From the NCBI RefSeq assembly GCF_001677475.2, contig NZ_CP015229.1: DNA of 64,000 bases. One strand, given 5' to 3'. The stretch comes from Escherichia coli (lineage in GTDB: Bacteria > Pseudomonadota > Gammaproteobacteria > Enterobacterales > Enterobacteriaceae). The translations under genes were made by a program, and so were the position numbers. Under the pieces are notes generated by a model. The model worked only from the letters and a program-made list of their open reading frames with translations. It was not told the origin of the DNA and did no database searches. Below, piece after piece: positions 53,392 to 53,507 of the stretch (its first letter is position 1; each line of letters starts with the position of its first letter).

Positions 53392-53422
53392 CGCCTTTAC
53401 TCCCTGTTAGTTGTTATTTATT

Positions 53423-53506
53423 GGCGGATGCGGCGTAAACGCCTTATCCGCCCTACATGTGCAATCCCGAAGGCCGGATAAAACGCGACATGCGTCGCAT
53501 CCGGCA
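53423..53506. repeat. Two REP elements between eutH and eutG
   Basis: GGCGGATGCGGCGTAAACGCCTTATCCGCCCTACA (53423-53457) and GCCGGATAAAACGCGACATGCGTCGCATCCGGCA (53473-53506), in a 116-bp intergenic gap inside the operon. Confidence 0.8.
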
Positions 53507-53507
53507 T

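What the first reader, a model, noticed from the sequence alone, without database searches (positions are those of the whole stretch)
53392..53507. Two REP elements embedded inside the eut operon between eutH and eutG
A 116-bp intergenic gap within a polycistronic operon is filled by two canonical REP palindromes. REP elements inside operons can stabilise upstream mRNA segments or cause partial termination, so this is a second potential point of differential expression within the locus.
Basis: partly seen in the sequence, partly recalled or inferred. Interest (0 to 1): 0.3.

Follow-up and report, generated by a model that had tools for sequence, protein, structure and literature searches.

The report
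REP hairpin pair between eutG and eutH
The 116-base gap between two genes of the ethanolamine-utilisation operon holds one pair of the common Escherichia "REP" palindromes, an ordinary, already known kind of repeat whose copy number at this spot varies from strain to strain and whose effect on expression is untested and probably modest.

Summary
Window 53392-53507 is exactly the gap between eutG (53508-54695) and eutH (52165-53391). Both genes are on the minus strand, so transcription runs eutG, then the gap, then eutH. The gap holds two inverted REPs, tail to tail:
- a Z1-like unit on the transcript strand (53469-53505), starting 2 nt after the eutG stop codon;
- a Y unit (53423-53456).

Together they form one BIME unit. 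They fold as two RNA hairpins of about -20 kcal/mol each. There is no U-tract, no promoter-like site and no IHF site, and the eutH ribosome-binding site stays unpaired.

This is the orthologue of a known, copy-number-variable E. coli BIME. In an even sample of 60 of 5,411 E. coli records, the gap held 1 pair in 18, 2 pairs in 24 (K-12 type), and 3-5 pairs in 9. It was half-deleted in 3 (O157:H7 type) and replaced by an unrelated dispersed repeat in 5.

Other genera differ. Salmonella and some Citrobacter carry different REPs in a different arrangement, Klebsiella carries its own REP type, and several Citrobacter have a bare 27-nt junction.

The differential-expression idea is plausible from the general REP literature but untested here. 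The variability argues against a conserved regulatory device. Low interest; already known.

The parts
53508..54695 (-). eutG coding sequence (395 aa); the upstream gene in the transcript. Stop codon TAA at 53510-53508.
   Evidence: NCBIfam equivalog NF011998, 884.6 bits, full length 1-395; ORF list; the same annotation in E. coli RefSeq records.
53469..53505 (-). Z1-like REP on the transcript strand. The stem-loop runs 53505-53473 (GCCGGATGCGACGCATGTCGCGTTTTATCCGGC: 8 + 5 base pairs with a 1x1 internal loop). The tail at 53472-53469 reads CTTC where other copies read CTAC. It starts 2 nt after the eutG stop codon.
   Evidence: I1; 0 mismatches to the pattern; hairpin -20.1 kcal/mol; comparison with 30 other Z copies at this locus.
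53457..53468 (-). Short tail-to-tail linker (GGGATTGCACAT on the transcript strand). It has no IHF consensus.
   Evidence: conserved in nearly all Escherichia units; no WATCAANNNNTTR on either strand.
53423..53456 (+). Y-type REP, reading GGCGGATGCGGCGTAAACGCCTTATCCGCC + CTAC on the + strand. In the mRNA it appears as GTAG followed by the complementary hairpin.
   Evidence: I2; -19.5 kcal/mol. The same Y variant occurs at 7540-7573 in the window.
53392..53422 (-). eutH leader, AATAAATAACAACTAACAGGGAGTAAAGGCG, with the Shine-Dalgarno GGGAG at 53404-53400. It is unpaired in the predicted fold and conserved in all Escherichia alleles whatever fills the gap.
   Evidence: the last ~38 nt are unpaired in the MFE and centroid structures.
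52165..53391 (-). eutH coding sequence (408 aa); the downstream gene in the transcript.
   Evidence: NCBIfam equivalog NF011665, 872 bits, 1-408 of 408; ORF list.

Best explanation
The gap holds one unit of a locus-specific, copy-number-variable BIME. The unit is a Z1-like REP and a Y REP in inverted, tail-to-tail orientation with a short linker.

Shown here:
- It is the orthologue of the REP cluster at the eutG-eutH junction of E. coli K-12 and most other E. coli, which carry 1 to 5 such ~100-bp units in tandem. Other Escherichia species carry up to 6.
- In the eut mRNA it predicts two separate stable hairpins of about -20 kcal/mol each.
- The first hairpin begins 2 nt after the eutG stop codon.
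- No U-tract follows either hairpin.
- The eutH ribosome-binding site is left single-stranded.

Inferred from the REP literature:
- The element arose and multiplied through the REP-associated Y1 transposase (TnpA-REP/RAYT) and through recombination or slippage between the 100-bp direct repeats.
- On the transcript it most likely acts as a weak, context-dependent modulator rather than a switch. It would block 3'-to-5' exonucleases, favouring survival of the eutS-eutG part after downstream cleavage.
- Because it lies within 15 nt of the stop codon, it may slightly lower EutG output by hindering ribosome termination.
- It uncouples eutG and eutH translation, which are only 27 nt apart in species without the insert.
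- Most transcription reads through, because eutABC and eutR lie downstream.

Overall it is best seen as a tolerated repeat insertion in the one permissive junction of this part of the operon, not as a conserved regulatory device.
For: Identity:
- REP patterns match far above chance.
- The two units are inverted with a short linker.
- Two hairpins are predicted.

Orthology and tandem variation:
- Sequenced alleles of 116, 216, 316 and 515 nt consist of 1, 2, 3 and 5 units of the same ~100-nt Z-linker-Y-linker repeat.
- In 60 evenly spaced records out of 5,411, the gap lengths were 116 (18), 216 (24), 316 (5), 416 (1), 515/516 (3), 169 (5) and 99 (3), with 1 disrupted.
- Other Escherichia species carry 1, 3, 5 or 6 units.
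- Ton-Hoang et al. (PMC3333891) state that tandem BIME number at a given locus varies between E. coli strains, and that TnpA-REP cleaves and recombines BIMEs in vitro.

Hairpins are kept in most copies:
- Median energy is -21.5 kcal/mol for 31 Z copies and -19.5 kcal/mol for 34 Y copies.
- Compensated stem changes occur, such as GGTGGAT/ATCCACC and GCGGCGC/GCGCC in Escherichia sp. MOD1-EC7003.

Against a strong stop:
- No terminator-like or promoter-like site lies in the gap.
- The operon logic needs read-through: P1 drives all genes and eutR is last, with positive feedback (PMC5821096).
- eutG and eutH are co-induced in EDL933.

For dispensability:
- Several Citrobacter have a bare 27-nt junction, and Yokenella and a Pluralibacter MAG a bare 32-nt one.
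- Salmonella, the C. freundii group, Pseudocitrobacter and Klebsiella carry different REPs.
- One REP arm is deleted in O55:H7 and O157:H7.
- About 8% of sampled E. coli have the BIME replaced by a member of another dispersed repeat family.

For possible RNA-level effects:
- REP325 is a dual attenuator and stabiliser, and REP tandem pairs are upstream-biased.
- Stem-loops protect 3' ends from PNPase and RNase II (PMC6061677).
- REPs fewer than 16 nt from a stop codon down-regulate translation (Liang, Rudd and Deutscher 2015, as summarised in PMC12306157).
Against: - No expression data exist for any strain with an intact 1-pair allele, so every RNA-level effect is inference.
- At least one hairpin sits directly after eutG in about 90% of sampled E. 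coli, and some structured element occupies this junction in many genera. Morganella and Buttiauxella have a small non-REP hairpin there. This could reflect selection for structure at this junction rather than mere tolerance.
- Gap lengths in the 60-record sample were inferred from alignment spans. Only one or two alleles per class were read as sequence, and the 416 class was not read at all.
- The sample is spaced along a similarity ranking. It is not random and not corrected for phylogeny.
- The Z1 versus Z2 assignment rests on my memory of the consensus sequences. The figures that show them are not held in the library.
Confidence: 0.75

Rival explanations
1. The REP pair is a working point of differential expression. 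It attenuates transcription into eutH-eutR (partial Rho-dependent termination), or selectively stabilises the eutS-eutG segment, or both. The two halves of the operon would then be expressed at measurably different levels (more than two-fold).
For: - REP325, which sits inside the yjdMN operon, lowers the downstream gene about 8-10-fold and stabilises the upstream gene.
- Tandem gene pairs with REPs are upstream-biased genome-wide.
- BIMEs were reported as Rho-dependent attenuators by Espeli et al. 2001, as cited in PMC6061677.
- The insert creates an untranslated stretch of about 85 nt, or about 500 nt in 5-pair alleles.
Against: - REP325 has 12 hairpins. This element has 2.
- The same study stresses wide scatter and context dependence, and found no general half-life effect.
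- There is no C-rich unstructured tract. The gap has 34 G against 28 C and is mostly paired.
- Strong polarity would cut expression of the lyase genes and of eutR, which the P1 feedback loop needs.
- The only per-gene data found show no discontinuity: EDL933 log2 fold change is 3.87/4.42 for eutG and 3.42/4.10 for eutH.
- Copy number is free to vary from 0 to 6 pairs.
Confidence: 0.25
2. The relevant effect is translational. Because the first hairpin starts 2 nt after the eutG stop codon, ribosomes terminating on eutG stall. This triggers tmRNA-dependent rescue and lowers EutG yield, the REP mechanism of Liang, Rudd and Deutscher. The insert also abolishes eutG-eutH translational coupling.
For: - The distance from the stop codon to the stem is 2 nt, well inside the reported limit of fewer than 16 nt (PMC12306157).
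- In most Escherichia units the first Z REP abuts the stop codon in the same way, as TAA-AT-GCCGGATG.
- The hairpin is stable at -20.1 kcal/mol.
Against: - This is not tested at this locus.
- In K-12-type alleles the first Z hairpin is weakened to -10 kcal/mol. In O157:H7, SCPM-O-B-8794 and MOD1-EC7003 the first Z is truncated, so the feature is not maintained.
- In Klebsiella the first REP lies about 25 nt or more from the stop codon, and several Citrobacter have none.
Confidence: 0.3
3. The element acts at the DNA level, as a binding site for gyrase, DNA polymerase I, IHF or HU, or as a domain boundary. Its position in the operon would then be incidental to transcription.
For: Such roles have been proposed for BIMEs in general, as reviewed in the introduction of the 2026 preprint.
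Against: - No IHF consensus and no long L linker are present, so it is not an IHF-binding BIME-1.
- The 2026 preprint found no REP-dependent nucleoid compaction or long-range REP-REP contacts.
- Nothing in the sequence distinguishes this pair from the other REP pairs of the genome.
Confidence: 0.1
4. The gap hides an internal promoter for eutH-eutR, or an intrinsic terminator for eutS-eutG, and the palindromes are part of it.
For: In strain LF82, eutH RNA is three-fold higher than eutG RNA both uninduced (106 vs 35 RPKM) and induced (514 vs 168) (PMC6379400). This would fit an internal start or a more stable downstream segment.
Against: - LF82 carries the 169-nt non-REP allele, so this observation does not concern the REP pair.
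- The consensus scan finds no sigma-70-like site and no hairpin-plus-U-tract in the gap on either strand.
- After the hairpins the sequences are CUUCGGGAUU and AAUAAAUAAC.
Confidence: 0.05

Closest known systems
The REP/BIME cluster in the eutG-eutH gap of E. coli K-12 MG1655 (NC_000913.3 2568108-2568323)
   Same: It sits at the same junction with the same flanks: TAA-AT on the eutG side, and AATAAATAACAACTAACAGGGAGTAAAGGCG-ATG on the eutH side. It has the same Z-linker-Y unit, with the linker and Y REP nearly identical.
   Different: K-12 has two units (216 nt) and the window has one (116 nt). The window's Z REP carries changes of its own: the loop region reads CATGTCGCGTT where other copies read CTTGCCGCGTC, and the tail reads CTTC where they read CTAC. 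No full-length match above 97.2% was found in 5,426 complete E. coli genomes.
BIME classes of Bachellier/Gilson, as summarised by Ton-Hoang et al. 2012 (PMC3333891): BIME-1, BIME-2 and atypical BIMEs
   Same: [quoted passage not shown] One partner is Y. The units are tandemly amplifiable, and the number differs between strains.
   Different: It is not BIME-1, because it lacks a long L linker and an IHF site and the locus is multi-copy in other strains. It is not a textbook BIME-2, because the Z partner has GCCGGATG...ATCCGGC (Z1-like) and not GCCTGATG...ATCAGGC as in the window's Z2 units at 7483 and 33049 (the Z1/Z2 consensus is from memory). It fits best with the 'atypical' chimeric, multi-copy class.
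REP325 in the yjdM-yjdN operon (bioRxiv 10.64898/2026.03.23.713779)
   Same: It is an operon-internal BIME of alternating Z and Y hairpins between two co-transcribed genes. It lacks a U-tract.
   Different: REP325 has 12 hairpins (Z2/Y) and a measured 8-10-fold attenuation plus stabilisation. The element here has 2 hairpins and no measurements.
Translation-regulating REPs (Liang, Rudd and Deutscher 2015, via PMC12306157)
   Same: The REP lies within 15 nt of the stop codon of the upstream ORF. Here the distance is 2 nt.
   Different: The effect was shown for other genes (for example the nrdAB transcript). It is not tested for eutG, and the first hairpin is weakened or truncated in several Escherichia alleles.
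The REP pair in the eutG-eutH gap of Salmonella enterica subsp. enterica and the Citrobacter freundii group (119 nt)
   Same: It is at the same junction, also has two REPs, and also sits directly after the eutG stop codon.
   Different: The REP sequences differ and the arrangement is opposite, head to head. The pair folds as a single long REPIN-like hairpin (-58.6 kcal/mol, z = -5.5), whereas the window element folds as two separate hairpins. S. enterica subsp. diarizonae has only one REP (67 nt).

Membership tests
REP (repetitive extragenic palindrome / palindromic unit) | A 30-40-nt imperfect palindrome able to form a stem-loop with an internal mismatch | tested here: met
   Z: 33-nt stem-loop with a 1x1 internal loop, -20.1 kcal/mol. 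Y: 30-nt stem-loop with a 2x2 internal loop, -19.5 kcal/mol.
REP (repetitive extragenic palindrome / palindromic unit) | A match to the E. coli REP consensus, repeated in the genome | tested here: met
   The core pattern has 5 matches in 64 kb against 0 in shuffles, and the tail pattern has 5 against 0.42. The 141-nt query finds a median of 4 places per E. coli genome.
REP (repetitive extragenic palindrome / palindromic unit) | The conserved GTAG/CTAC tetranucleotide at the foot of the palindrome, required for TnpA-REP binding (PMC3333891) | tested here: inconclusive
   The Y unit has CTAC at 53453-56. The Z unit has CTTC at 53472-69, whereas 27 of the 31 Z copies at this locus in 12 Escherichia genomes have CTAC. 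The feature is met for Y and lost in this Z copy.
REP (repetitive extragenic palindrome / palindromic unit) | Extragenic location | tested here: met
   It lies wholly between the eutG stop codon (53508) and the eutH start codon (53391).
BIME (bacterial interspersed mosaic element) | [quoted passage not shown] | tested here: met
   Z is on the - strand and Y on the + strand, tail to tail, with 20 nt between the stems.
BIME-1 | Z1 + Y as a single copy, with a long conserved L linker that usually carries an IHF site | tested here: not met
   The linker is short. No WATCAANNNNTTR is present on either strand. The locus is multi-copy in most E. coli.
BIME-2 | Z2 + Y with a short linker, in tandem copies whose number varies | tested here: inconclusive
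   The short linker and tandem variability are met. The Z partner is Z1-like (GCCGG.../...CCGGC), unlike the Z2 units elsewhere in the window. The Z1/Z2 consensus is recalled from memory, so the element is best filed as an atypical BIME.
REPtron / RAYT-associated element | A tnpA-REP (RAYT) gene in the same genome that recognises this REP type | not testable with these tools
   The rest of the genome is not available, and the window was not searched for a RAYT gene.
Intrinsic (Rho-independent) terminator | A G+C-rich hairpin immediately followed by a U-run | tested here: not met
   No terminator-like site lies in the gap. The tails after the hairpins are CUUCGGGAUU and AAUAAAUAAC.
Translation-regulating REP (Liang/Rudd/Deutscher class) | A REP hairpin no more than 15 nt downstream of the stop codon of the upstream ORF | tested here: met
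   There are 2 nt between TAA (53510-08) and the first stem base (53505). The criterion is taken from PMC12306157. The functional consequence was not tested.

The most novel reading that the evidence does not exclude
The number of BIME units at the eutG-eutH junction (0 to 6 across strains) could act as an evolvable rheostat. Each added Z/Y pair would lengthen the untranslated, structured spacer. This would progressively shift the balance between the upstream module (shell proteins and EutE/J/G) and the downstream module (EutH, the EutABC lyase system and the activator EutR). Lineages would then differ in the threshold and strength of the EutR positive-feedback loop, and so in how readily they use ethanolamine in the gut.
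Probability: 0.08. Interest if true: 0.5.

Novelty: already known. Interest (0 to 1): 0.15.

Why it matters
As it stands this is a routine annotation: one REP pair of a well-described family, at a junction where E. coli K-12 is already seen to carry the same element.

The comparison adds two modest points. First, the eutG-eutH junction is a recurrently occupied, highly polymorphic repeat site across Enterobacteriaceae. Second, natural alleles with 0, 1, 2, 3, 4, 5 and 6 pairs exist, along with a decayed allele and a replaced one. Together they form a ready-made series for measuring what REP pairs do inside an operon that matters for gut colonisation.

If copy number does tune the ratio between the two halves of the operon, it would be one example of non-coding repeat variation changing metabolic gene expression between strains.

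Tried and rejected
- **Rfam.** A scan of the whole window at gathering thresholds found only four tRNAs and nothing in the gap. REPs are not an Rfam family hit here.
- **Promoter and terminator scan of 53000-54000.** It found nothing in the gap. The two terminator-like hits are one coding palindrome inside eutH.
- **IHF site.** A search for the consensus found none, so BIME-1 was rejected.
- **Literature search for eutG + eutH + 'repetitive extragenic'.** It returned 0 papers.
- **Papers not held.** The papers most likely to mention the gap (Stojiljkovic 1995; Kofoid 1999) and the primary paper on REPs and translation (Liang 2015, plus the 2016 follow-up) are not in the library. No supplements are held for the Term-seq paper and none mention eut in RepRanger.
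- **LF82 RNA-seq as evidence on REP function.** I rejected this after finding that LF82 carries the non-REP 169-nt allele.
- **GGCGG/CCGCC in the Y stem as a locus-specific compensatory variant.** I rejected this because the same Y variant occurs in the unrelated BIME at 7540-7573.
- **The mechanical ORFs overlapping the gap** (53407-53604, 53411-53653, 53453-53668 and 53457-53903). I did not pursue them, because they run through the REPs and into eutG on other frames or strands.
- **Per-base unpaired probabilities from my own script**. They looked unreliable and are not used. The statement about RBS accessibility rests on the MFE and centroid structures.
- **Source organism.** It could not be identified. 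The best identity to complete E. coli genomes is only 97.9-98.9%.
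Full report
**1. What is in the sequence**

The ORFs flanking the reported interval are both on the minus strand.
- 52165-53391 encodes a 408-aa protein that matches the NCBIfam EutH equivalog over its full length (872 bits, cut-off 574).
- 53508-54695 encodes a 395-aa protein that matches the EutG equivalog (884.6 bits, cut-off 556).
- The neighbouring ORFs are EutA and EutJ.

The gap is therefore 53392-53507, 116 nt, exactly as reported. Transcription runs eutG, then the gap, then eutH.

Read on the transcript strand, the gap is:

TAA(stop)-AT-GCCGGATGCGACGCATGTCGCGTTTTATCCGGC-CTTC-GGGATTGCACAT-GTAG-GGCGGATAAGGCGTTTACGCCGCATCCGCC-AATAAATAACAACTAACAGGGAGTAAAGGCG-ATG(eutH)

- The first palindrome (53505-53473) is a Z-type REP in the sense orientation.
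- The second (53423-53456 on the + strand) is a Y-type REP in the opposite orientation.
- The two are tail to tail with a short linker, so together they form one BIME unit.

**2. Is it more than chance?**

- A REP core pattern finds 5 sites in the 64-kb window and none in 100 dinucleotide-preserving shuffles. The sites are this pair, a second pair at 7488-7569 and a single unit at 33054.
- The full Z pattern matches with 0 mismatches against 0 expected.
- The tail motif gives 5 matches against 0.42 expected.
- As RNA, the gap folds into two separate hairpins. The MFE is -45.7 kcal/mol, z = -2.36, and 4 of 200 shuffles fold as well. The individual hairpins are -20.1 kcal/mol (Z) and -19.5 kcal/mol (Y).

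**3. What the gap does not contain**

- No sigma-70-like promoter and no hairpin-plus-U-run terminator on either strand.
- No IHF consensus.
- No Rfam family.
- The last ~38 nt before and around the eutH start, including the GGGAG Shine-Dalgarno at 53404-53400, are unpaired in both the MFE and centroid structures.

**4. Comparison within E. coli**

The same junction in annotated E. coli genomes was read as sequence for these alleles:

| Gap length | Strain(s) | Content |
|---|---|---|
| 116 nt | 2018-05-2CC | 1 unit |
| 216 nt | K-12 MG1655 | 2 units |
| 316 nt | EC0026B | 3 units |
| 515 nt | VTB96959v, MS14387 | 5 units |
| 99 nt | O55:H7 (O157:H7 records show the same 99-nt span) | a 17-nt deletion removed the 5' arm of Z, and Y is weakened (-11 kcal/mol) |
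| 169 nt | ETEC1748 | BIME replaced by an unrelated G+C-rich sequence |

- The 116/216/316/515 alleles are 1, 2, 3 and 5 tandem copies of the same ~100-nt unit: Z, tail-tail linker, Y, head-head linker.
- The 138-nt replacement is itself a dispersed repeat, with a median of 15 places per genome.

To estimate frequencies I searched with the two 300-nt flanks joined together and read the spans of 60 records spaced evenly down the ranking of 5,411 matching records.

| Gap length | Records |
|---|---|
| 116 | 18 |
| 216 | 24 |
| 316 | 5 |
| 416 | 1 |
| 515/516 | 3 |
| 169 | 5 |
| 99 | 3 |
| disrupted | 1 |

- About 85% of sampled E. coli therefore carry an intact BIME of 1-5 pairs at this junction.
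- The window's single-pair form is the second commonest.
- Caveats: lengths come from spans, the 416 class was not read as sequence, and the sample is neither random nor corrected for phylogeny.

This behaviour is exactly what Ton-Hoang et al. describe for BIME-2 and atypical BIMEs. Tandem copies are well conserved within a locus, and their number differs between strains (PMC3333891).

**5. The window's own allele**

- Its Y unit and linker are the common ones.
- Its Z unit has changes seen in none of the 30 other Z copies collected from 12 Escherichia genomes. The loop and upper stem read CATGTCGCGTT where the others read CTTGCCGCGTC, and the tail reads CTTC where 27 of 31 copies read CTAC.
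- The hairpin is still stable.
- GTAG/CTAC is the tetranucleotide that TnpA-REP needs for binding. This Z copy may therefore no longer be a transposase substrate; that is an inference.
- No complete E. coli genome matches the gap at more than 97.2% over its full length.
- The surrounding region matches at 97.9-98.9% at best. The window comes from an Escherichia/Shigella-like lineage that is not in that collection, and I could not name it.

**6. Comparison across genera**

A scan of one genome per species with EutH returned 51 loci. I located eutG and eutH in each and extracted the gap.

| Group | Gap | Content |
|---|---|---|
| E. whittamii; a MAG labelled Citrobacter | 116 nt | 1 Z/Y unit |
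| Escherichia sp. E1V33 | 315 nt | 3 units |
| Escherichia sp. MOD1-EC7003 | 474 nt | 5 units |
| 'E. coli' SCPM-O-B-8794 | 578 nt | 6 units |
| S. enterica subsp. diarizonae | 67 nt | 1 REP |
| S. enterica subsp. enterica (commonest EutG allele) | 119 nt | 2 REPs head to head; identical in layout to C. youngae, C. werkmanii and C. portucalensis |
| Pseudocitrobacter, C. gillenii | 122-123 nt | another REP pair |
| C. sedlakii | 60 nt | 1 short REP |
| Klebsiella | 170-216 nt | Klebsiella-type REPs |
| Six Citrobacter genomes (including C. braakii ATCC 51113) | 27 nt | bare junction, ATACACATATGACAGGGAGTGAAGGCT |
| Yokenella; a Pluralibacter MAG | 32 nt | bare junction |
| Morganella, Buttiauxella, P. 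gergoviae | 45-48 nt | a small GCCTG-N5-CAGGC hairpin |

- The Salmonella enterica pair folds as one long hairpin (-58.6 kcal/mol, z = -5.5).
- So the position is a recurrently occupied repeat site, but the occupant differs. The element is conserved only within Escherichia.
- In this part of the operon it is also the only junction that is not tight. The eutE-eutJ gap is 10 nt, eutJ-eutG overlap by 11 nt, eutH-eutA overlap by 4 nt, and the eutA-eutB gap is 11 nt.

**7. How it most likely works**

Shown:
- Two stable hairpins are predicted in the polycistronic mRNA.
- The first hairpin begins 2 nt after the eutG stop codon.
- There is no intrinsic terminator.
- The eutH RBS is free.
- The insert separates the two cistrons by 116 nt, against 27 nt in genomes without it.

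Inferred from published work:
- Such hairpins block PNPase and RNase II, so they define or protect 3' ends (PMC6061677).
- A 12-hairpin BIME inside yjdMN both attenuates downstream transcription about 8-10-fold, in a partly Rho-dependent way, and stabilises the upstream gene. REP-separated tandem pairs are on average upstream-biased, but with large scatter and no general half-life effect (preprint 10.64898/2026.03.23.713779).
- REPs fewer than 16 nt from a stop codon can lower translation of the upstream gene by stalling ribosomes (Liang et al. 2015, as summarised in PMC12306157).

Against a strong effect here:
- The eut operon is driven from P1, with the activator gene eutR last. A positive-feedback loop depends on read-through (PMC5821096).
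- In EDL933, which has the decayed allele, the log2 induction is 3.87/4.42 for eutG and 3.42/4.10 for eutH, a small step.
- The element is freely variable, decayed, replaced or absent in nature (sections 4 and 6).

The one data set with absolute values is LF82, where eutH is 514 RPKM and eutG 168 RPKM. It turned out to come from a strain with the non-REP 169-nt allele, so it says nothing about the REPs. It does show that eutH RNA can exceed eutG RNA without them.

My best reading is a tolerated BIME with at most a modest, context-dependent influence: an exonuclease barrier, a possible small reduction of EutG translation, and loss of translational coupling. I put the identity at about 0.97 and this functional reading at about 0.6.

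**8. Comparison with what is known**

- This is the orthologue of the REP cluster at the K-12 eutG-eutH junction, with one unit where K-12 has two.
- By the published classes it is not BIME-1, because there is no L linker or IHF site and the locus is multi-copy.
- It is not a textbook BIME-2, because the Z partner is Z1-like. That assignment is from my memory of the consensus.
- It fits the atypical, chimeric, amplifiable class.
- It works like other operon-internal REPs only by analogy.

**9. Verdict**

The finding is real and correctly identified, but ordinary. The comparative evidence makes a conserved regulatory role unlikely. The only mildly interesting by-product is the natural allele series (0-6 pairs, a decayed form and a replaced form), which would make this junction a convenient test bed for REP function.

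Noticed in passing
window 57306-57333 (-), within the eutM-eutN gap 57235-57340: There is a terminator-like hairpin (GTGTGACGTCGATTCGGGCGTCACGC) followed by a U-rich run, and then a second hairpin, in the 106-nt gap after the shell-protein gene eutM. The gap RNA folds with z = -2.96, and 0 of 200 shuffles fold as well. This looks a better candidate for a partial terminator inside the operon than the REP pair.
   Followed up: partly
window 7483-7577 and 33049-33085: There are more REPs. A second tail-to-tail BIME has a Z2 unit on the + strand (7483-7519) and the same Y variant on the - strand (7540-7573). A solitary Z2 REP lies at 33049-33085.
   Followed up: partly
window 50754-50764 (eutA-eutB junction): The eut operon is uninterrupted here. 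In K-12 MG1655 the CPZ-55 cryptic prophage (6.8 kb) sits directly beyond eutA, whereas eutB follows eutA after 11 nt in the window.
   Followed up: partly
whole window (tested on 20000-28000, 49000-57000, 53380-53520): No complete E. coli genome out of 5,426 is 99% or more identical over the segments tested; the best values are 98.9%, 97.9% and 97.2%. Gene order is that of E. coli (tal/maeB-eut-hemF...gltX). The source is probably a Shigella or a divergent Escherichia lineage, but it was not identified.
   Followed up: partly
L004 493-661 (E. coli ETEC1748); L061 1768-1936 (E. coli LF82): In about 8% of sampled E. coli the BIME at this junction is replaced by a 138-nt G+C-rich element (CCCCTCGCCCCTTTGGGGAGAGGG...CCCTCACCCC). 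This element belongs to a separate dispersed repeat family with a median of 15 and up to 26 places per genome. I did not identify the family by name. It resembles what older literature calls box C, but that is from memory.
   Followed up: partly
L063 2689-2807 (Salmonella enterica subsp. enterica) and L019, L023, L025, L026, L028, L058 (Citrobacter): Salmonella and several Citrobacter share an almost identical 119-nt gap. Its two head-to-head REPs fold into one long REPIN-like hairpin (-58.6 kcal/mol, z = -5.5). Close relatives (C. braakii ATCC 51113 and others) have a bare 27-nt junction, so presence or absence varies within the C. freundii group.
   Followed up: partly
L041-L045, L047, L053, L054 (Morganella and a strain labelled Klebsiella), L043 (Pluralibacter gergoviae), L034-L037 (Buttiauxella): Distant eut operons (EutG about 57% identical) have a short gap of 45-48 nt. 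It contains a small conserved hairpin, GCCTG-N5-CAGGC, just before the eutH ribosome-binding site. It is not a REP, and its function is unknown.
   Followed up: no
window 53356-53376 (inside eutH, first codons): A perfect-looking palindrome, ATCATGATGTACATGATGAT, was flagged by both the repeat and terminator scans. It lies in the coding sequence for the conserved N-terminus (IIMYIMM) and is probably incidental.
   Followed up: no
window 12828-12900 (-) and 15599-15871 (+): Rfam reports four tRNA genes, three of them in a tight cluster. In the closest E. coli genome this region holds a tRNA-Val/Lys cluster next to gltX and an RtT sRNA.
   Followed up: no
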